From IMG/VR virus record IMGVR_UViG_2627853701_000003: a DNA stretch of 47,670 bases; one strand, given 5' to 3'. The position numbers and the translations under genes were made by a program. Under the pieces are notes generated by a model. It did no database searches. It was not told the DNA's origin and saw only the letters and a list, made by a program, of their open reading frames with translations. Shown in pieces: positions 5,265-34,040 of the stretch. Each line of letters opens with the position of its first letter. Positions within the stretch are counted from its first letter, which is position 1. Source of the DNA: a virus (Duplodnaviria > Heunggongvirae > Uroviricota > Caudoviricetes).

Positions 5265-5942
5265 TTACCATTGCTCCCCATATACAAAACCAATTTCAGC
5301 CAGTGCCTCGTCCATTTTTTCGATGAACTCCGGCACCATCTCGTCAAAACTCGCCATGTACTTTTCATTCCGCTCAATCACGACATAATGCAGGCCTTCA
5401 CGCTTCATGCGCGGGTCATAGTTGGCAAAGTACCAGGCATCTTTTCGTGTCACCCACATGCTGTACTGCACCTGGGCCATGTAAGCCGATTTTATGGCCT
5501 CGAAACCACCGAGCCGGAACTTCATGAAATCCCGGGAGGTAAACGGGCATTTCAGCTCAAGGCCGTTGCCGTCACTGCATAAACCATCGGGAGAGCAGGC
5601 GGTGCGCATACTTTCGTCGCGATAGATGATCGGGGATTCAGTAACATTCACGCCGGAAGTGAACTCAAAGAGGGTTCTGGCGTCGTTCTCGTACTGTTTT
5701 CCCCAGGCCAGAGCCTTAGCGTTAACTTCCGGAGCCACACCGGTGCAAACCTCAGCCAGCAGGGTGTGGAAGTAGGACATTTTCATGTCAGGCCACTTCT
5801 TTCCTGATCGGGGTTTTGCTATTACGTTGTGAATTTCTGAAGCTGTGATGACGCCGAGCCGTAATTTGTGCCACGCATCATCTCCCTGTTCGACAGCTCT
5901 CACGTCGATCCCAGTACGCTGCAGGATAATGTCCGGTGTCAT
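5265..5942 (-). CDS. exo: lambda-type exonuclease (Red alpha)
   Basis: 225-aa product ([36 protein letters not shown]...) is near-identical to lambda Exo as I recall it. Confidence 0.95.
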
Positions 5943-6724
5943 GCTGCCACCTTCTGTTCAGTGGCTTTTTGTTTCAGGAATCCAAGAGCTTTTACTGCTT
6001 CGGCCTGTGTCAGTTCTGACGATGCACGAATGTCGCGGCGAAATATCTGGGAACAGAGCGGCAATAAGTCGTCATCCCATGTTTTATCCAGGGCGATCAG
6101 CAGAGTGTTAATTTCCTGCATGGTTTCATCGTTAACCGGAGTGATGTCGCGTTCCGGCTGACGTTCTGCAGTGTATGCGGTATTTTCGACAATGCGCTCG
6201 GCTTCATCCTTGTCATAGATACCAGCAAATCCGAAGGCGAGACGGGCACACTGAATCATGGCTTTATGACGTAACATCCGTTTGGGATGCGACTGCCACG
6301 GCCCCGTGATTTCTCTGCCTTCGCGGGTTTTGAATGGTTCGCGGCGGCATTCATCCATCCACTCGGTAACGCAGATCGGATGATTACGGTCCTTGCGGTA
6401 AATCCGGCATGTGCAGGATTCATTGTCCTGCTCAAAGTCCATGCCATCAAACTGCTGGTTTTCGTTGATGATGCGGGACCAGCCATCAACGCCCACCACC
6501 GGAACGATGCCGTTCTGCTTATCAGGGAAGGCGTAAATTTCTTTCGTCCACGGATTAAGGCCGTACTGGTTGGCGACGATCAACAATGCGATGAACTGCG
6601 CATCGCTGGCATCACCTTTAAATGCCGTCTGGCGAAGAGTGGTGATCAGTTCCTGTGGGTCGACAGAATCCATGCCGACACGTTCAGCCAGCTTCCCTGC
6701 CAGCGTTGCGAGTGCTGTACTCAT
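5939..6724 (-). CDS. bet: lambda-type recombination protein Bet (Red beta)
   Basis: 261-aa product ([59 protein letters not shown]...) matches lambda Bet; 4-nt overlap with exo. Confidence 0.95.
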
Positions 6725-6729
6725 CCGTT

Positions 6730-7026
6730 TTATACCTCTGAATCAATATCAACCTGGTGGTGAGCAATGGTTTCAACCATGTACCGGATGTGTTCTGCCA
6801 TGCGCTCCTGAAACTCAACATCGTCATCAAACGCACGGGTAATGGCTTTTTTGCTGGCCCCGTGGCGTTGCAAATGATCGATGCAGAGTGATTCAAACAG
6901 GTGCTGTGGAAGACCTTTTTCCATGTCGTCTGCCAGTTCTGCCTCTTTCTCTTCACGGGCAATCTGCTGGTAATGACGCGCCCAGCTCTGAGCCTCAAGA
7001 CGATCCTGAATGTAATAAGCGTTCAT
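6730..7026 (-). CDS. gam: RecBCD inhibitor Gam (short GamS form)
   Basis: 98-aa product [56 protein letters not shown]... matches lambda Gam; the upstream in-frame extension has no ATG before a stop. Confidence 0.9.
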
Positions 7027-7101
7027 GGCTGAACTCCTGAAAATGGCTGTGAATATATCGCCCGCGAAATGCCGGGCTGATTAGGTAAACAGGAAAGGGG
7101 A

Positions 7102-7512
7102 TTAGTGATTCAGGCCGTTGCCGCGTCCGTCGAGAAAAACTTCCACGAGCAAATCACGGGTATAAGTGCGCTCGATGCCGCGATGCAGATAAAGCCGTCC
7201 GCGTAAATTAGCTGATGCAGTCCAGGTACCATCTTTGTGTTTGACCAGCATTCCTGGCATGACCGCACCGCGATTAACGGTCTGCGTTCCGTAATGTTGA
7301 TGAACCATAAAAACTCCTGCCCGTAAGCTGGGCTGCTGAACATATAGAGACTTCTGCGCGTATTCAGGCGGTGGATGGCCGCCGGTTGTCATAACTAAGC
7401 CGCCTCGTTGAAGCGACTGAGGTATGAGGTGTTGAGTTGATTTCAGCTGGTCACACCGACGTTCACGCGTCCACTTCACCCCTCGCACTTCCCGGAGCCT
7501 GCTGAAATTCAA
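7102..7512 (-). CDS. first ORF of the leftward early operon (function unknown; occupies the N/kil position)
   Basis: 136-codon ORF that begins with TTG; first in-frame ATG is further in; Arg-rich N-terminus; a 77-aa ORF in another frame (7110-7343) overlaps it. Gene boundaries unresolved. Confidence 0.25.
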
Positions 7513-7529
7513 GCTGCGGATCTAAGCGG

Positions 7530-7579
7530 TCATCGCAACGGTGAATCAGGTGGTTGCCGTATCGTTGTGTTGTTGCGAT
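7530..7579 (-). promoter_or_regulatory. 9-bp inverted repeat (CATCGCAAC ... GTTGCGATG) at the predicted 5' end of the pL transcript
   Basis: Perfect 9-bp arms with a 32-nt spacer, directly downstream of the predicted pL -10. Confidence 0.35.
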
Positions 7580-7583
7580 GAAT

Positions 7584-7660
7584 TTATTTAAAACTATAGT
7601 TGTTTTGTCGTCAACAACAAAAGTTGTTTTATTGGTTTTTTTAGATGTAAATGGTTGTAT
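7584..7660 (-). promoter_or_regulatory. OL/pL: leftward early promoter with operator half-sites
   Basis: Minus strand reads TTGACG-17nt-TTAAAT, nearly identical to the pR sequence TTGACT-17nt-TAATCT; flanked by GTTGTT/AACAAC and ATGGTTGT half-sites shared with OR. Confidence 0.55.
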
Positions 7661-7766
7661 TTAGGATGGATTTATTTTGTGACTTGCATCGCATAGCGAT
7701 AACTGAAGCGAGGTCGTGGTGGTTTTTTGAATGGTTTGTGTGATGAGGGGGAGGGGCAAAAGAAAA

Positions 7767-7784
7767 CCCGGCACGGTGGCCGGG
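7767..7784 (-). terminator. rho-independent terminator ending the cI-downstream cassette
   Basis: Minus-strand hairpin CCCGGCCACCGUGCCGGG followed by UUUUCUUUUG, 4 nt after the stop of the 7789-8166 gene. Confidence 0.7.
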
Positions 7785-7788
7785 ATTC

Positions 7789-8166
7789 TTACGCAGGTAG
7801 GTAAAGATATGATTGTGGTGGCTTAATATTACTACCTAGAGCAGAGATAGGAATTGGTTCTTTATATCTTTCCACTTCACCAATTTTTATTGCGTAGGCC
7901 TTTTCTCTACCTGAATAATATGAGTCATAAAATTGCTTAGAAATACCTGCGTGTTTTTCCGTCTTTTTCCAAAGAGATTCCGGTTCGTCACTTAGTATTG
8001 ATTCAATACGGAATTGACCAACAACTTTACCTAATGGCATCGTGGCATAAATAACAACGGTGCTAATTTGCGGATTTTTGAATATACCTTTACGAAACTC
8101 GAACCGCTTTGTTCCGTTCAATATTTTTTCTGCAAACTCAGGCTTAATGGATAATAAAACTTTCAT
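7789..8166 (-). CDS. ASCH-like (PUA-fold) small protein, second gene of the rex-slot cassette
   Basis: 125-aa ATG ORF; N-terminus MKVLLSIKPEFAEKILNGTKRFEFRKG matches the ASCH-domain pattern as I recall it; roughly 32% GC against about 50% for the surrounding phage; overlaps the upstream gene by 23 nt. Confidence 0.55.
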   Translation of the reverse strand: MKVLLSIKPEFAEKILNGTKRFEFRKGIFKNPQISTVVIYATMPLGKVVGQFRIESILSDEPESLWKKTEKHAGISKQFYDSYYSGREKAYAIKIGEVERYKEPIPISALGSNIKPPQSYLYLPA

Positions 8167-9217
8167 TTATCTTGCCTAACTCGATGATCTTTAAGAACTG
8201 CTCATTTGTGAGTTTAAAGTGACTCCATCGGAATGCACGCGAACCATTTAGCCCCACATGATCTATTAAAATAGCACGATTGGGTCTCTTTGGCAAAGAC
8301 AGATTGTATGTGAATCTTATAATGAAAGGGTATCGACGTTCTTTATAGATTTTTCTGAGTTCATCTTCAGAAAATACGCTAAAACGAATACAATAGTCTA
8401 CAAAACTATCTTCGCTTAAAAATTCAGAAATATTTTTTACGCTCTCAACTACACATAATGTACTGGCTACAGAACGATAGCGAGCTGGCCCTTTTTTGTC
8501 TCCGGTTCTATAGATGACAATGATATCTCCTCTTTTCATTCCCATCACAGAACGCATTCCACATATGTAAATTTTATGAATGCTGTTAGCATGGGATATA
8601 TCTTTGACAATATCTGGTGATTCATTTACAAGTTTTGAATCAGGGAATAGTCTAGTGTGATATTCGGGATAAATCGCCAGTAAATATTTGTTGGCTCTTG
8701 ATGTCATTATTCGAGGGTAATCTAATAAAATATCACCATAAGGCTCATGCAAAGACCTCGCATATACAAACTCTTTCCCGTTATGTGTTTCTTTTTCACC
8801 ATGAATGTAAAATCCGTACGTTTGGAAAAGTTTTATTAGATGGACGTGTTTGTCGAAAACAGTAACATAAATATCATCAGATTTTGATGAAAATGCATGG
8901 TCAAACGCTTTTTTTAGAAATCGTTGTCCGCGAAGGGTGCCTTTAGATTCAAATTTGAATGTTCCTATCTTTAGATGACGTCCTGGTGGGAGCGCTGGAT
9001 TAATGTCATTTGCATCATCATTTTCTTTTAGATACATAAAACCTTCGATTTTATGCTTGTCATCATAGAGCACATAAGCTGATTCTCCTTCTCTGGCTTT
9101 TTTTTCTAACCAAAGAGGAAACTCTTTATAATCTTTTTTTAAAGAGTCAAAAAATGGGTCATTGTGATCAAAATCAGAGAATTTCTCATATTTTAAAGTA
9201 TCCATTAAGTTCTCCAT
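8144..9217 (-). CDS. GNAT-like acyltransferase domain fused to a PUA-like (EVE/ASCH-like) domain, first gene of the rex-slot cassette
   Basis: 357-aa ATG ORF (a second ATG at 9205 has a better GGAGA Shine-Dalgarno). Residues about 60-150 read like a GNAT core (LKIGTFKF..GTLRGQRFLKKAFDHAF..DDIYVTVFDKHVHLIKLFQTYGFYIHGE); residues about 215-260 read like a PUA-type module (MKRGDIIVIYRTGDKKGPARYRSVASTLCVVESV). Low GC. Domain calls are from motif reading only. Confidence 0.45.
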   Translation of the reverse strand: MENLMDTLKYEKFSDFDHNDPFFDSLKKDYKEFPLWLEKKAREGESAYVLYDDKHKIEGFMYLKENDDANDINPALPPGRHLKIGTFKFESKGTLRGQRFLKKAFDHAFSSKSDDIYVTVFDKHVHLIKLFQTYGFYIHGEKETHNGKEFVYARSLHEPYGDILLDYPRIMTSRANKYLLAIYPEYHTRLFPDSKLVNESPDIVKDISHANSIHKIYICGMRSVMGMKRGDIIVIYRTGDKKGPARYRSVASTLCVVESVKNISEFLSEDSFVDYCIRFSVFSEDELRKIYKERRYPFIIRFTYNLSLPKRPNRAILIDHVGLNGSRAFRWSHFKLTNEQFLKIIELGKINESFIIH

Positions 9218-30757: not shown

Positions 30758-32726
30758 ATCCTGGTTCAGGATGCAAGCTGGGGGGCCGGGTGACGCGGAT
30801 ATTTATATTTATGACGAGATTGGTTTCTGGGGAGTTACCGCGAAGCAGTTTGTCAGCGAACTGAATGCACTGGGTGATATCACCCACATTAATCTCCATA
30901 TCAATTCACCGGGTGGCGATGTCTTTGAAGGCATCGCCATTTTTAATGCCCTGAAAAATCAGGGGGCGACCATTACCGTGTATGTGGATGGCGTTGCCGC
31001 CTCGATGGCATCTGTGATTGCGATGGCCGGTGATACGGTCATTATGCCGGAAAATGCCTTCATGATGATCCATAAGCCATGGGGATTCAGTGGCGGGGAT
31101 GCTGAGGATATGCGCAGTTATGCCGATTTGCTGGATAAAGTCGAATCGGTACTGTTGCCAGCCTATGCGCAGAAAACCGGAAAAACCACCGATGAAATTG
31201 CCGCCATGCTGGCGGATGAAACCTGGATGTCCGGTGCCGAATGTCTGGCACACGGATTTGCTGACCAGGTGACACCCGCTGTTGAGGCAATGGCATGTAT
31301 TCAGTCAAAACGTACAGAGGAATTTAAAAAGATGCCGGAATCCATCCGAAACATGATTACTCCGCCACGCAACAGTGCCCCGCGTGATACCACAGTGACA
31401 ATCCCTGCACCGGCGGTAACAGAACCATCACCGGTACCGGCAGTGTCTGATGAGGCGACCATTCGCGCCCGCGTTATGGCTGAGCAGAAAGCCCGCATGT
31501 CAGGCATTAACGATCTGTTTGCCATGTTCGGCGGTCGCTATCAGACGCTTCAGGCACAGTGCGTGGCTGATCCTGACTGTTCGCTGGAAATGGCCCGTGA
31601 ACGTCTGCTGAATGAAATGGGCAAGGAGTCCTCGCCGACCAACAAAAATACACCGGCCCATATTTATGCCGGAAACGGCAATTTTGTGGGGGACGGGATC
31701 CGCCAGGCGATGCTGGCCCGTGCCGGATTTGAAAATGTCGAGAAGGATAACGCCTATAACGGGATGACCCTGCGTGAATGGGCTCGCATGTCACTGACGG
31801 AGCGCGGTATTGGGGTGGCCAGTTATAACCCCATGCAGATGGTCGGGCTGGCGCTGACGCACAGCACCTCTGATTTTGGCAATATTCTGCTGGATGTGTC
31901 GAACAAGGGGCTGATCCAGGGCTGGGAGGAATCAGAAGAAACCTTCCAGAAGTGGACCCGTAAGGGACGCCTGTCAGACTTCAAAACAGCGTATCGCGTG
32001 GGGATGGGCGGTTTTGGTTCTCTGCGCCAGGTTCGTGAGGGGGCGGAGTATAAATACATCACCACCTCAGATCGCAAGGAGACCATTGCACTGGCAACTT
32101 ACGGGGAGATTTTCTCCATCACCCGCCAGGCCATTATCAATGATGATCTGAATATGCTGGTGGACGTGCCGATGAAGATGGGGCGTGCGGCGAAGGCAAC
32201 GATTGGTGACCTGGTCTACAAGGTGCTGACGGATAACCCGAAACTGTCCGACGGTAAGGCGCTGTTCCATGCCGATCACAAAAATATTGCCACCGGGGGG
32301 ATCTCCGTTTCCGGACTGGATGCGGCCCGTCAGATGATGCGCCTGCAGAAAGAAGGCGATCGTGCCCTGAATATCCGTCCGGCCTTTATGCTGGTACCGG
32401 TGGCACTGGAGACGGTGGCGAACCAGACCATCAAATCGGCCAGTGTGAAAGGGGCGGATGCAAACGCCGGTGTCATTAACCCTATCCAGAACTTTGCTGA
32501 GGTGATTGCAGAAGCGCGTCTTGATGCGGCAGACCCGAAAACCTGGTATCTGGCGGCGGCACAGGGCACTGACACCATTGAAGTGGCCTGGCTGGATGGT
32601 GTGGACACGCCATACATTGATCAGCAGGAAGGTTTCACCACTGACGGCATTGCCACAAAAATCCGTATTGATGCCGGAGTGGCACCACTTGACTGGCGCG
32701 GGCTGGTGCGTTCGTCGGTGGCCTGA
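30747..32726 (+). CDS. prohead protease (ClpP/S49-like) fused to scaffold and HK97-fold major capsid protein
   Basis: From ATG 30747 overlapping the portal stop: N-terminal protease-like region (ADIYIYDEIGFWGV ... SPGGDVFEGIAIFNAL), Ala/Pro-rich linker, C-terminal capsid-like region; the track ORF starts earlier at 30555. Confidence 0.75.
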   Translation: MKNKSWFRMQAGGPGDADIYIYDEIGFWGVTAKQFVSELNALGDITHINLHINSPGGDVFEGIAIFNALKNQGATITVYVDGVAASMASVIAMAGDTVIMPENAFMMIHKPWGFSGGDAEDMRSYADLLDKVESVLLPAYAQKTGKTTDEIAAMLADETWMSGAECLAHGFADQVTPAVEAMACIQSKRTEEFKKMPESIRNMITPPRNSAPRDTTVTIPAPAVTEPSPVPAVSDEATIRARVMAEQKARMSGINDLFAMFGGRYQTLQAQCVADPDCSLEMARERLLNEMGKESSPTNKNTPAHIYAGNGNFVGDGIRQAMLARAGFENVEKDNAYNGMTLREWARMSLTERGIGVASYNPMQMVGLALTHSTSDFGNILLDVSNKGLIQGWEESEETFQKWTRKGRLSDFKTAYRVGMGGFGSLRQVREGAEYKYITTSDRKETIALATYGEIFSITRQAIINDDLNMLVDVPMKMGRAAKATIGDLVYKVLTDNPKLSDGKALFHADHKNIATGGISVSGLDAARQMMRLQKEGDRALNIRPAFMLVPVALETVANQTIKSASVKGADANAGVINPIQNFAEVIAEARLDAADPKTWYLAAAQGTDTIEVAWLDGVDTPYIDQQEGFTTDGIATKIRIDAGVAPLDWRGLVRSSVA

Positions 32727-32813
32727 TAACCGCGTTATCACAATCACTGCCCGAAAGGGCTTTTTTTATGCCTGAAAAACAGCCCCACAGGGGCTGTCCG
32801 GAGAAACAGCATT

Positions 32814-33140
32814 ATGGCGAAAAATTTTGTACAGGACGGTACCACCATTGAACTGGTGAATGCCGGAGATCAGACCATCCTGAGCGGTGCTGCGGTGGTG
32901 GTCGGCAGTATGGTGGCCGTGGCCATTACCGATATTCCTGCCGGTGAGGCCGGTGACGGTTTTGCCGAAGGCGTGTTCCTGCTGCCCAAACAGTCTGCTG
33001 ACGACATTCAGTCCGGCGCGGTGGTTTATCTGAAGGACGGGGTTGTGCAGCTGGCTGCAGACGGTGCGGTGGCAGCGGGGGTAGCCTGGGAAAATGCCCC
33101 TGCAAACAGCGCCACTGTGGCGGTAAAAATCAATGTCTGA
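32814..33140 (+). CDS. DUF2190-like head protein (possible decoration/cement)
   Basis: 108-aa Gly/Ala/Val-rich ORF directly after the capsid gene. Confidence 0.4.
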   Translation: MAKNFVQDGTTIELVNAGDQTILSGAAVVVGSMVAVAITDIPAGEAGDGFAEGVFLLPKQSADDIQSGAVVYLKDGVVQLAADGAVAAGVAWENAPANSATVAVKINV

Positions 33141-33414
33141 TCTGTTTACGCGAATGTGTTGCCGGATGGACGTGGCGACCGTTCGGGTGATGGGCAAACA
33201 GGCGGAGATTAACGGCGTCGTGTACGACGTGATGCCGGAGGAAGAGTCCGCGGAGATGGGGGCGCTTTCGGGCAGCCAGTTGTCACTGGTGGTGTTTTCA
33301 GCCCGGTACCGTCCGGCCCGTCATGATGTTGTTGTGTTTGCGGGGCGCACACTGACGGTGACCCGTTATGACACGTACAACGGTAAACCCCGGATTTTTG
33401 TCGAACAGGAATGA
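33133..33414 (+). CDS. head-tail connector (FII-like)
   Basis: 93-aa ORF between the head genes and Z, loosely resembling lambda FII. Confidence 0.4.
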   Translation: MSDLFTRMCCRMDVATVRVMGKQAEINGVVYDVMPEEESAEMGALSGSQLSLVVFSARYRPARHDVVVFAGRTLTVTRYDTYNGKPRIFVEQE

Positions 33415-34040
33415 GTATGGCAATAAAAGGTCTGGCGCAGGCCATGAAAAATCTGGATGCAATTGATCGCCGTGCCGTTCCCCGGGCCTCTGCCACGACA
33501 CTGAACCGAGTGGCGGGGGCCATTATTGCGAAAACGGCCTCTTCAGTTGCCAGGGAGCTGGCCGTTCCCCGTCGTCTTATCCGTGCCCGCATCCGGTTAA
33601 GTCCGGCACGACCGGATAAGGTTTACGCAAAGGTTTACATCAATACCGGCAACCTGCCCGCCATCAAACTGGGGGAGGCCCGCGTTCGACTTTCCCGCAG
33701 AAAACGGAGAAAGAAAGGACAGCGTGCGGCCCTGAAAGGGGGCGGCAGTGTGCTGATTGTGGGGAAAAGACGGATCCCGGACGCCTTTATCACCCGGCTG
33801 GCTAACGGACGCTGGCATGTGATGCAGCGTATGCCGTGGGCATCATCATCCACCGGCGCGGACAGCAAAGGGAGGCCGAAACGCCACCGTCTGCCGATCG
33901 AAGTGGTGAAGATTACGACTGCCGGACCGCTGGCAGAAACCTTTGAACGTGAACGGGACCGGATGTACCGGGAAAAATTACCGGCGCAGATGATGAAAGC
34001 CATGACGCATCAGTTACGCCTGGTGCTGAAAAGAAAATGA
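33411..34040 (+). CDS. Z: minor tail protein Z
   Basis: MSMAIKGLAQAMKNLDAIDRRAVPRASATTLNRVAG...SRRKRRKKGQRAALKGGGSVLIVGKRRIPDAFI..NGRWHVMQR matches lambda gpZ. Confidence 0.85.
   Translation: MSMAIKGLAQAMKNLDAIDRRAVPRASATTLNRVAGAIIAKTASSVARELAVPRRLIRARIRLSPARPDKVYAKVYINTGNLPAIKLGEARVRLSRRKRRKKGQRAALKGGGSVLIVGKRRIPDAFITRLANGRWHVMQRMPWASSSTGADSKGRPKRHRLPIEVVKITTAGPLAETFERERDRMYREKLPAQMMKAMTHQLRLVLKRK

What the first reader, a model, noticed from the sequence alone, without database searches (positions are those of the whole stretch)
7513..7766. pL/OL and pR/OR share near-identical promoter-operator modules; no N gene follows pL
The minus strand at about 7584-7614 reads TTGACGacaaaacaactatagttTTAAAT, almost the same as the pR sequence TTGACTaaaaacaaccatagttTTAATCT at about 10024-10052. 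Both are embedded in ATGGTTGT/ACAACCAT half-sites, including a perfect 9+7+9 palindrome at 10017-10041. This defines the immunity specificity and places pL directly upstream of the 7102-7512 ORF. No lambda N-like gene and no room for a nut-type leader follows pL, so early antitermination, if any, must work differently.
Basis: seen in the sequence. Interest (0 to 1): 0.45.

Follow-up and report, generated by a model that had tools for sequence, protein, structure and literature searches.

The report
Left operator-promoter of N-less prophage
This is the repressor-controlled leftward early promoter of a very common lambda-like prophage of E. coli O157:H7, built like the phage 434/lambda switch; it drives a long untranslated leader and a cell-division inhibitor gene instead of an N antiterminator, an arrangement that is ordinary for lambdoid phages although how they manage without N is not settled.

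Summary
The sequence observation holds. pL (7618-7588, minus strand) and pR (10019-10049) share 28 of 31 bases, and 10017-10041 is a perfect palindrome. The anatomy needs correcting. The operators are most likely six 14-bp sites, ACAAC-N4-GTTKT, like those of phage 434: OL1-3 and OR1-3, spaced 23-24 bp as in lambda. The palindrome is OR2 abutting OR1. The 136-aa ORF is over-extended. The real gene is a 68-aa KilR-type FtsZ inhibitor (7308-7102), preceded by a roughly 270-nt untranslated leader that starts at about +1 of pL and is shared by at least three immunity types. So "no N" is supported: no N/Nun family match, a non-coding substitution pattern, frame-breaking variants, and no N annotated in viable relatives. 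"No room for a nut-type leader" is wrong. An HK022 put model finds nothing. An exact rrn-type boxA follows cro, with no boxB hairpin and no copy in the left leader. The most likely reading is an N-independent lambdoid phage that relies on host factors. A role for the leader RNA remains open. This is a new member of a known kind, of modest interest.

The parts
7767..7784 (-). Intrinsic terminator ending the cI-cargo (immunity) transcript: CCCGGCCACCGTGCCGGG followed by TTTTCTTTTG.
   Evidence: It is also the upstream boundary of the block shared among most relatives.
7673..7766 (.). Spacer between the terminator and OL. It is shared by most relatives whatever their cargo genes; function unknown.
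   Evidence: pi 0.11 for 7784-7673.
7645..7658 (.). OL3 candidate. Only one good half-site (ACAACCA...); a weak site.
7614..7627 (.). OL2, ACAACTTTTGTTGT, a perfect ACAAC-N4-GTTGT site. It abuts and overlaps the pL -35 hexamer.
   Evidence: No half-site column varies among 76 loci.
7609..7614 (-). pL -35 hexamer, TTGACG.
   Evidence: A TTGAC/TTGAT hexamer sits at the same alignment columns in three immunity types.
7590..7603 (.). OL1, ACAACTATAGTTTT on the minus strand. It lies between the -35 and -10 hexamers of pL.
7586..7591 (-). pL -10 hexamer, TTAAAT, after a 17-nt spacer. The predicted start is about A7579.
   Evidence: It aligns with TATTAT of phage 4A7. Inferred, not mapped.
7309..7579 (-). 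Untranslated pL leader of about 270 nt, conserved from about +1 in at least two immunity types and from 7545 in a third.
   Evidence: Its pi is 0.035 and 0.018, against 0.048-0.068 at third codon positions of kil, gam and bet.
7389..7427 (-). Stable hairpin in the leader that pairs the in-frame ATG at 7392. This segment is shared with phage HK225.
   Evidence: -16.3 kcal/mol, z -3.15.
7102..7308 (-). kil, a 68-aa KilR-type FtsZ inhibitor and the first real gene of the pL operon.
   Evidence: phrog_294 E 2e-38. NCBIfam PRK11354 E 1e-16. Annotated as 68 aa. All 16 segregating sites fall at third codon positions.
9286..9975 (-). cI repressor: an HTH_3 domain plus a Peptidase_S24 domain. The N-terminal domain is closest to the 434 repressor.
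9982..10010 (-). Predicted pRM: TTGATG (10010-10005), 17 nt, TACATT (9987-9982), then 6 nt to the cI ATG, giving a leaderless cI mRNA as in lambda.
   Evidence: Read. Inferred.
9987..10000 (.). OR3, ACAACCAAGGTTTT.
10011..10024 (.). OR2, ACGAAAATGGTTGT. Its centre lies about -42 from both pR and pRM.
10034..10047 (.). OR1, ACAACCATAGTTTT. Together with OR2 it forms the palindrome at 10017-10041.
10024..10052 (+). pR: TTGACT, 17 nt, TAATCT.
10080..10310 (+). cro analogue of the YdaS/P22-Cro family.
   Evidence: Role of YdaS as a Cro analogue: PMC8630535, PMC9986795.
10324..10335 (+). Exact rrn-type boxA, GCTCTTTAACAA, in an unstructured, G-poor gap between cro and cII.
10380..10919 (+). CII analogue of the YdaT family.
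   Evidence: PMC9986795.

Best explanation
The interval is the OL/pL control region of a lambda-type immunity switch in an E. coli O157:H7 lambdoid prophage.

The repressor is a LexA-like, self-cleaving CI whose DNA-binding domain resembles that of phage 434. It is inferred to bind as dimers to 14-bp sites, ACAAC-N4-GTTKT. These are OL1 (7590-7603), OL2 (7614-7627) and a weak OL3 (7645-7658) on the left, and OR1-OR3 (10034-10047, 10011-10024, 9987-10000) on the right. The geometry matches lambda: sites lie about -18 and -42 from pL and pR, and OR2 lies about -42 from a leaderless pRM.

After CI is lost, pL is inferred to start near 7579. It makes an untranslated leader of about 270 nt and then kil (68 aa, a KilR-type FtsZ inhibitor), gam, bet and exo.

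The phage has no N or Nun gene and no put RNA. My commitment, which is inferred, is that it has no dedicated early antiterminator and that early transcription relies on host factors. On the right, an exact boxA just after cro would load NusB/NusE and protect the untranslated cro-cII gap from Rho. On the left, the first convincing intrinsic terminator lies 3 kb downstream, past exo. The long C-rich leader probably limits Kil expression instead, by analogy with Rho/NusG silencing of Rac kilR.

Shown by computation: sequence similarity, site geometry, conservation patterns, and family matches or their absence. Inferred: repressor binding, transcription start points, and everything about elongation control. 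The confidence of 0.7 is for the whole statement: about 0.85 for the switch, the leader and kil, about 0.9 for the absence of N, and about 0.55 for 'no dedicated early antiterminator'.
For: Switch:
- pL and pR are 28/31 identical.
- Seven of the 21 window-wide matches to ACAAC-N4-GTTGT (2 mismatches or fewer) fall in two stretches totalling about 130 positions, with spacings of 24, 23 and 31 bp.
- Klebsiella phage ST101-KPC2phi6.1 has the same spacings, but the 25-bp palindrome is lost there.
- Among 76-78 loci with an identical CI, 1 of 50 half-site columns varies against 38 of 160 other columns (Fisher p 2.5e-4).
- The CI N-terminal domain is closest to the 434 repressor among solved structures (E 5e-9), and 434 operators are 14-bp ACAA-N6-TTGT (established knowledge).
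- The terminator at 7784-7767 closes the cI-cargo operon.

No N:
- Pfam, PHROGs and NCBIfam give nothing for 7309-7512, and kil is the only match in the ORF.
- Codon-position test and frame-breaking variants.
- PGAP and the 4A7 record annotate kil as 68 aa.
- Viable phage PhiR47_2 has Q but no N.
- Every locus with this CI that extends far enough has the same leader and kil.

No put: a covariance model built from HK022 putL and putR recovers both at E below 1e-20 and finds nothing in the window, 4A7 or the Klebsiella phage at E up to 10.

boxA: there is a single exact copy, at 10324-10335. The surrounding RNA is unstructured (-5 kcal/mol, z +0.7) and G-poor (C/G up to 2.8).

Left operon: the first strong intrinsic terminator is at 4606-4588.

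Rho/NusG silencing of Rac kilR: PMC5793797.
Against: - The generic sigma-70 scan does not call pL or pR, because their -10 hexamers are weak. No transcription start data were available.
- The viable relative PhiR47_2 has two fair intrinsic-terminator-like hairpins on the pR strand before Q, at 10979-11004 and 13053-13074 in L093. Some antitermination or internal promoters may therefore be needed on the right.
- boxA/Nus complexes are known mainly to counter Rho, not intrinsic terminators.
- The 4A7 immunity type has only a 30-nt cro-cII gap and no boxA, so boxA is not general to the N-less family.
- The leader is conserved from +1 and varies less than neighbouring synonymous sites. That would fit an RNA function I could not identify.
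Confidence: 0.7

Rival explanations
1. The conserved pL leader is itself a cis-acting RNA that modifies RNA polymerase. It would be a functional analogue of HK022 putL, unrelated in sequence, and would replace N and nutL.
For: - Homology among immunity types starts at about +1 of pL.
- Leader diversity is below the synonymous-site diversity of the flanking genes.
- All six common polymorphisms that fall in alifold-predicted pairs keep pairing through G-U.
- A strong intrinsic terminator lies 3 kb downstream, before the xis/int side of the operon.
Against: - The put covariance model gives no hit.
- The leader folds no better than shuffles (z -0.03 and -0.15).
- There are no compensatory double changes, and rare variants break the stems.
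- The alifold structure was derived from the same alignment, so that test is circular.
- No second copy exists downstream of pR.
- A third immunity type replaces the first 35 nt of the leader.
- The loci were chosen for identical Kil, which depresses the diversity of linked sequence.
Confidence: 0.12
2. The leader is chiefly a Rho/NusG-dependent attenuator that keeps the toxic kil gene silent in lysogens and tempers it after induction. This is compatible with the best explanation.
For: - About 270 nt are untranslated, with C-rich, G-poor stretches (C/G 1.8 at 7580-7521 and 7440-7381).
- A hairpin sequesters the upstream ATG at 7392.
- Rac kilR is silenced by NusG/Rho (PMC5793797).
- Kil belongs to the KilR family.
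Against: - There is no sequence similarity to the Rac kilR upstream region or to KilS.
- Composition alone is a weak predictor of rut sites.
- gam, bet and exo lie downstream and would be attenuated too.
Confidence: 0.3
3. A short arginine-rich peptide encoded at 7512 to about 7420 (...GVK[W/R][13 protein letters not shown]...) is a miniature N-like protein.
For: - It is the first open frame after pL.
- KRTRERR resembles the TRR(R/H)ERR core of the lambda and P22 N arginine-rich motifs (from memory).
- The first 26-31 codons stay open in nearly all variants.
Against: - The start is TTG with no Shine-Dalgarno sequence.
- Substitutions fall evenly over the codon positions, and all those seen are non-synonymous.
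- The length varies (31, 40 and 72 or more codons), and in this window the frame is fused to kil.
- No boxB-like hairpin exists in either leader.
- No family match.
Confidence: 0.04
4. The exact boxA and the two collinear motifs shared by the pL leader and the cro-cII gap are nut-like sites for an unidentified factor. The motifs are CGCAGCTTRAATTTC (7518-7504 and 10301-10315) and AATCAACTYAACA (7442-7430 and 10341-10353). Alternatively, they are binding sites for the YdaT-type CII analogue.
For: - The best and third-best leader matches in 11 kb of the pR operon fall within one 55-nt span that also holds boxA, and in the same order.
- In CP-933P, YdaT footprints about 95 nt between ydaS and ydaT and recognises AATCAA half-sites (PMC9986795).
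Against: - Both motifs are polymorphic on the pL side: C7513T, and a TCAAC duplication.
- The first motif overlaps the cro stop codon.
- The spacing differs between the two sides (40 nt against 76 nt).
- No boxA exists on the left.
- The 4A7 immunity type lacks all three elements on the right.
- This CII analogue gave no PDB sequence match at E 0.001 or below, the CP-933P YdaT structure of PMC9986795 presumably included. Its DNA specificity therefore cannot be transferred.
Confidence: 0.1
5. The 25-bp palindrome ATGGTTGT-N9-ACAACCAT is the operator unit.
For: It is a perfect 9+7+9 palindrome, and ATGGTTGT is also present at 7651.
Against: - The equivalent pair at OL has a 10-nt spacer, not 9.
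- The Klebsiella relative loses the outer palindrome but keeps the 14-bp sites.
- The N4 spacing inside the 14-bp sites is constant in all six.
- The repressor resembles 434 CI, which uses 14-bp operators.
Confidence: 0.1

Closest known systems
Phage 434 / lambda immunity switch (CI, Cro, tripartite OL and OR, pRM/pR/pL)
   Same: - Divergent pRM and pR with three evenly spaced operators, and a matching OL over pL.
- A repressor that couples an HTH domain to an S24 self-cleavage domain.
- The cI start codon follows the predicted pRM -10 hexamer closely enough for a leaderless mRNA.
- A 14-bp operator of the form ACAA-N6-TTGT.
- Accessory genes and a terminator between cI and OL, in the position of rexAB.
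   Different: - The operator sequence, and so the immunity specificity, is its own.
- Cro is YdaS-like and the CII analogue is YdaT-like, as in Rac and CP-933P.
- There is no cIII and no N.
Lambda N / nut antitermination
   Same: - An exact boxA sits in the nutR position, just after cro.
- A long leader follows pL, where nutL would lie.
   Different: - No N gene.
- No boxB hairpin.
- No boxA in the left leader.
HK022 put RNA (N-independent, RNA-only antitermination)
   Same: - N-less lambdoid phage.
- A conserved transcribed element begins right at the pL start.
   Different: - No match to a put covariance model.
- No second copy after pR.
- No excess folding stability.
Rac prophage (racR-ydaS-ydaT, kilR)
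   Same: - Cro and CII analogues of the YdaS and YdaT families.
- A KilR-family FtsZ inhibitor in the leftward operon, behind a long untranslated region.
- No N.
   Different: - The repressor here is a full-length CI with an S24 domain.
- The kil upstream DNA is unrelated, with no KilS homologue.
- The recombination genes are lambda Red rather than RecET.
- Close relatives are viable phages.
rrn-type BoxA/Nus-factor antitermination
   Same: A 12 of 12 match to GCTCTTTAACAA in an untranslated, unstructured, G-poor RNA.
   Different: - Phage context.
- A single copy, present in only one immunity type.
- Function untested.

Membership tests
Lambda-type CI/Cro immunity switch | Repressor with an N-terminal HTH domain and a C-terminal LexA-like S24 self-cleavage domain | tested here: met
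   Pfam HTH_3 (E 5.5e-13) and Peptidase_S24 (E 1.2e-18). phrog_4 and phrog_6201.
Lambda-type CI/Cro immunity switch | Repeated operators over divergent pRM/pR, and matching operators over pL | tested here: met
   Six 14-bp sites spaced 23-24 bp. pL and pR are 28/31 identical. Half-sites are spared by polymorphism.
Lambda-type CI/Cro immunity switch | The repressor actually binds these sites and represses pL and pR | not testable with these tools
   Needs EMSA or footprinting, and reporter fusions.
Phage 434-type repressor/operator | DNA-binding domain homologous to 434 CI, and 14-bp ACAA-N6-TTGT operators | tested here: met
   The best solved-structure matches are a 434-derived domain (1sq8, dh434, E 1.8e-9) and the 434 repressor (1per, E 4.7e-9). 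OL2 is ACAACTTTTGTTGT. The half-site specificity itself was not tested.
Lambda N / nut system | N-family protein with an arginine-rich motif encoded first in the pL operon | tested here: not met
   No Pfam, PHROG or NCBIfam match for 7309-7512. The frame is not conserved. The substitution pattern is non-coding.
Lambda N / nut system | boxA plus a boxB hairpin in both early leaders | tested here: not met
   boxA occurs only at 10324-10335. The post-cro RNA is unstructured, and no boxB-like hairpin appears in either leader.
HK022 put RNA | Two-stem element of about 70 nt, similar to putL/putR, downstream of pL and pR | tested here: not met
   Covariance model R1 finds both HK022 copies (E 1e-22 and 1e-20) and nothing in the window at E up to 10. 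The model rests on only two sequences.
KilR/Kil FtsZ inhibitors | Sequence membership of the small Kil family | tested here: met
   phrog_294 E 2.4e-38. NCBIfam PRK11354 E 1.1e-16, but 60.6 bits, below the curated 92-bit cut-off. Annotated 'phage encoded cell division inhibitor' by PGAP.
KilR/Kil FtsZ inhibitors | Inhibits FtsZ and cell division | not testable with these tools
   Needs an expression and filamentation assay.
rrn-type BoxA antitermination | BoxA consensus in nascent untranslated RNA | tested here: met
   A 12 of 12 match, the only exact one in 47.7 kb; 13 nt after the cro stop, in an unstructured, G-poor gap.
rrn-type BoxA antitermination | NusB/NusE-dependent protection from Rho | not testable with these tools
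   Needs nusB or nusE mutants, or bicyclomycin, with reporter fusions.

The most novel reading that the evidence does not exclude
The roughly 270-nt pL leader is a previously undescribed cis-acting RNA that takes the place of N and nutL, either as a processive antiterminator or as a regulated Rho attenuator for kil and the Red genes. It is conserved from the transcription start across at least three immunity types and is found in about 37% of complete E. coli genomes.
Probability: 0.12. Interest if true: 0.65.

Novelty: new member of a known kind. Interest (0 to 1): 0.3.

Why it matters
This module is very common. The kil-leader-OL block is present at 80% coverage or more in 2022 of 5426 complete E. 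coli genomes, including O157:H7, and in viable phages such as 4A7 and the PhiR series.

Defining its operators gives a testable immunity specificity for a large prophage family. It also corrects an over-long ORF call that some phage records carry (a 128-aa 'Kil').

The open point is how lambda-like phages with Red genes, nin genes and Q run their early operons without N or put. Specialists already note this question in passing (PMC12315714). The conserved leader and the lone boxA are concrete handles for testing it.

Tried and rejected
- **Rfam.** The gathering scan of the whole window and the E-value scan of 7030-7800 gave nothing relevant in the region.
- **HK022 put.** No similarity by eye and no covariance-model hit.
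- **Distant relatives of the leader.** Citrobacter, Kluyvera, Enterobacter and other loci found through Kil do not carry it. A 'distant' blastn against phages found only copies 93.6% identical or more, plus a 35-nt piece in HK225. Real covariation could therefore not be tested.
- **Rac.** The kilR upstream region and the KilS sRNA are unrelated in sequence.
- **Immunity module with an N-bearing left arm.** None found. All loci recovered through CI that extend far enough carry the same leader and kil.
- **CP-933P YdaT operator.** TTGATT-N6-AATCAA gives only 2-3-mismatch matches at pR, in the cro-cII gap and in the leader. The CII analogue here gave no PDB sequence match, so this lead was not pursued.
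- **Literature.** No paper was found for the 'GevT/GevA' names. No paper on a kil-upstream sRNA in O157 was found among those searched.

Full report
**What the window is.** The region is 100% identical to E. coli O157:H7 chromosomes such as EC4115 and TW14359. The 7030-7790 block occurs at 80% coverage or more in 2022 of 5426 complete E. coli genomes. It also occurs at 91-99.5% identity in viable lambda-like phages, including PhiR47_2, 4A7 (genus Bievrevirus) and Perceval.

The local gene order, on the minus strand unless noted, is as follows:

| Feature | Coordinates |
|---|---|
| exo | 5265-5942 |
| bet | 5939-6724 |
| gam | 6730-7026 |
| kil | 7102-7308 |
| leader | 7309-7579 |
| OL/pL | about 7580-7672 |
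| intrinsic terminator | 7784-7767 |
| ASCH-domain gene | 7789-8166 |
| 357-aa acetyltransferase-like gene | 8144-9217 |
| cI | 9286-9975 |
| OR with pRM and pR | about 9980-10060 |
| cro analogue (plus strand) | 10080-10310 |
| YdaT-type CII analogue (plus strand) | 10380-10919 |
| O (plus strand) | from 10916 |

This is the lambda plan. The two accessory genes sit where rexAB sit in lambda.

**Check of the observation.** The quoted sequences are there. Aligned, pL (7618-7588, minus strand) and pR (10019-10049) are 28/31 identical with one 1-nt gap. The score is 45, against at most 30 for unrelated windows. 10017-10041 is a perfect 9+7+9 palindrome. A generic sigma-70 scan calls neither promoter, because the -10 hexamers TTAAAT and TAATCT are weak.

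The promoter assignment rests on comparison with relatives. In an alignment of 64 distinct relatives, the stretch 7672-7580 comes in at least three sequence types. All three keep a TTGAC/TTGAT hexamer, and 17 nt later a -10 hexamer, at the same columns. Phage 4A7 has the near-consensus TTGATA-17-TATTAT. WIN-type TTAAAT aligns with that TATTAT, which puts the start near A7579.

**What the operators are.** Matches to ACAAC-N4-GTTGT with 2 mismatches or fewer number 21 in the window, no more than in shuffles. Seven of them sit in two short stretches: 7590, 7614 (and an overlapping one at 7617) on the left, and 9987, 10011, 10034 and 10065 on the right.

- The spacing is 24 bp on the left and 24, 23 and 31 bp on the right.
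- Relative to the predicted starts, OL1 and OR1 lie at about -18 and OL2 and OR2 at about -42.
- OR2 is also about -42 from a pRM candidate. That candidate is TTGATG (10010-10005), 17 nt, TACATT (9987-9982), then 6 nt to the cI ATG, so the cI mRNA would be leaderless as in lambda (read).

Four independent lines favour these 14-bp sites over the 25-bp palindrome.

1. The equivalent GTTGT...ACAAC pair at OL is one base further apart, while the N4 inside every site is constant.
2. Klebsiella phage ST101-KPC2phi6.1 has a diverged copy of this immunity region. It keeps the sites and the 24/23/31 spacing, but its OR1 is ACAACTAAGGTTTT, which destroys the palindrome.
3. Among 76-78 IMG/VR loci that encode an identical CI, only 1 of 50 half-site columns varies, against 38 of 160 other columns, central N4 bases included (Fisher p 2.5e-4).
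4. The CI N-terminal domain is closest, among solved structures, to the phage 434 repressor (E 5e-9). 434 operators are 14-bp ACAA-N6-TTGT (established knowledge).

The palindrome is therefore OR2's right half abutting OR1's left half. OL3 (7645-7658) has only one good half-site. The site at 10065-10078 overlaps the cro Shine-Dalgarno sequence and start codon, and may be conserved for that reason.

**What follows pL.** The 136-aa ORF (7512-7102) is a mechanical ORF. Only its last 68-77 residues match a family: phrog_294 Kil (E 2e-38) and NCBIfam PRK11354, a KilR-type FtsZ inhibitor (E 1e-16, below the curated cut-off). The first 68 codons match nothing in Pfam, PHROGs or NCBIfam.

- Fourteen of 64 distinct relatives have a stop at 7419. 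Four have a 5-nt TCAAC duplication near 7440, and one has a 1-nt deletion.
- Segregating sites fall 11/8/8 over the three codon positions in 7512-7309. In kil they fall 0/0/16, in gam 20/14/44 and in bet 111/111/173. The kil figure is partly a selection effect, because the loci were chosen for identical Kil.
- More distant Kil genes from Citrobacter, Kluyvera and others share only the ATG at 7308 and nothing upstream.
- PGAP and the 4A7 RefSeq record call a 68-aa gene. PhiR47_2 carries a 128-aa call, which I regard as over-extended.

pL is thus followed by about 270 nt of untranslated leader.

**The leader.** Homology among immunity types begins at about +1 of pL for two types and at 7545 for the third. 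Every locus recovered through CI that extends far enough carries the same leader and kil. Nucleotide diversity is 0.035 for 7578-7430 and 0.018 for 7429-7309. Third codon positions of kil, gam and bet show 0.048-0.068.

As a whole the leader folds no better than shuffled sequence (z -0.03 and -0.15). One hairpin, 7427-7389, is exceptional (z -3.15) and pairs the in-frame ATG at 7392. That segment is shared with phage HK225, upstream of its kil.

In an alifold consensus of 62 distinct leaders there are no compensatory double changes. The six common polymorphisms that fall in predicted pairs stay paired through G-U, but rare variants break pairs, and the test is circular. Two stretches are C-rich and G-poor.

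**Tests for antitermination.**

- **N/nut.** There is no N gene. No boxB-like hairpin exists in either leader, and the post-cro RNA is essentially unstructured.
- **put.** A covariance model built from HK022 putL and putR recovers both copies and nothing else.
- **boxA.** The only exact GCTCTTTAACAA in the window lies 13 nt after the cro stop. It is present in all but one of the loci of this immunity type that cover the position, L035 being the exception. It is absent from the 4A7 type, whose cro-cII gap is 30 nt, and from the left leader.
- **Shared motifs.** Two collinear motifs are shared by the left leader and the cro-cII gap: 15 nt with one mismatch and 13 nt with one mismatch. Both fall within the 55 nt that hold boxA. 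They are polymorphic on the left, and one overlaps the cro stop codon. They could be relics, CII-analogue sites (compare PMC9986795) or chance.

**Terminators.** On the pL strand, the first convincing intrinsic terminator is at 4606-4588, beyond exo and the small orfs. On the pR strand, the window shows none before Q apart from an IS junction. PhiR47_2, however, has two fair candidates before Q.

**Most likely mechanism.** This is a 434-like/lambda-like bistable switch whose left arm drives leader-kil-gam-bet-exo. I judge the switch part well supported (about 0.85).

On elongation, I commit to no dedicated early antiterminator (about 0.55). On the right, boxA would recruit host Nus factors. 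On the left, the long untranslated leader would act, if anything, as a brake on the toxic Kil. This is by analogy with Rac kilR, which NusG/Rho keeps silent (PMC5793797). The rivals are an unrecognised RNA element in the leader, nut-like sites for an unknown factor, and a tiny arginine-rich peptide. Each has specific evidence against it, given under the rival explanations.

**Comparison with what is known, and novelty.**

- The architecture is that of 434 and lambda.
- The cro and cII analogues are of the Rac/CP-933P type (PMC8630535, PMC9986795).
- Absence of N is a recognised feature of many lambdoid phages and is usually noted only in passing. One example is 'no homolog of N... may have put' for phage LLS (PMC12315714).
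- N-like genes can also sit elsewhere. In mEp021, gp17 lies in the right operon (PMC11893012). No such gene is annotated in PhiR47_2.

The finding is therefore a new member of a known kind. The immunity specificity and the leader have not, to my knowledge, been described. Interest is modest, 0.3.

Noticed in passing
window 12241-13454, with flanks 11932-12201 and 13509-13946: An IS3-family insertion sequence interrupts the lambda-P-like replication gene. It carries an ALIL frameshift pseudoknot at 13057-13173 and two minus-strand transposase ORFs. This prophage copy is therefore probably replication-defective, unlike PhiR47_2, which has an intact P.
   Followed up: partly
window 25481-27653 and 31644-33815: A 2173-bp direct repeat, 99.9% identical, lies 6.16 kb apart inside the structural-gene region. 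It could be a real duplication, a recombination product between prophages, or an assembly artefact.
   Followed up: partly
window 18284-18301: A perfect TTGATTTTGGGAAATCAA lies in the intergenic region upstream of ninB and overlaps promoter-like hexamers on both strands. It matches the TTGATT-N6-AATCAA operator described for CP-933P YdaT (PMC9986795). About 0.003 such matches are expected by chance. It may be a CII-analogue-controlled promoter, like lambda paQ.
   Followed up: partly
window 7789-9217 (minus strand): The two genes in the rexAB position are a 357-aa acetyltransferase-like protein and a 125-aa ASCH-domain protein. The PhiR47_2 record labels them 'GevT toxin / GevA antitoxin'. No paper using these names was found. 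In relatives this cargo is swapped for other genes, with the boundary exactly at the terminator at 7784.
   Followed up: partly
window about 7440-7431: The leader carries TCAAC-TCAAC. Four relatives, from two immunity types, have a third TCAAC copy. This slippage-type polymorphism shifts the frame of the mechanical 136-aa ORF.
   Followed up: yes
window 7573-7600 (plus strand): A promoter-like match, TTGCGA-16-TATAGT (9 of 12), reads rightward out of OL1, antisense to pL. It is probably chance, but it lies inside the operator.
   Followed up: no
window 20835-21450: Downstream of Q lie three tRNA genes, an STnc100 match (21196-21388) and the anti-sRNA AgvB (21389-21450, minus strand). These are typical of EHEC lambdoid prophages.
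   Followed up: no
L094 (phage HK225), about 1304: A boxA-like GCTTTTTAACAA (1 mismatch) lies about 66 nt downstream of HK225's annotated leftward promoter and upstream of small unannotated-function ORFs and kil. HK225 may have a nutL-like site where this prophage has none.
   Followed up: no
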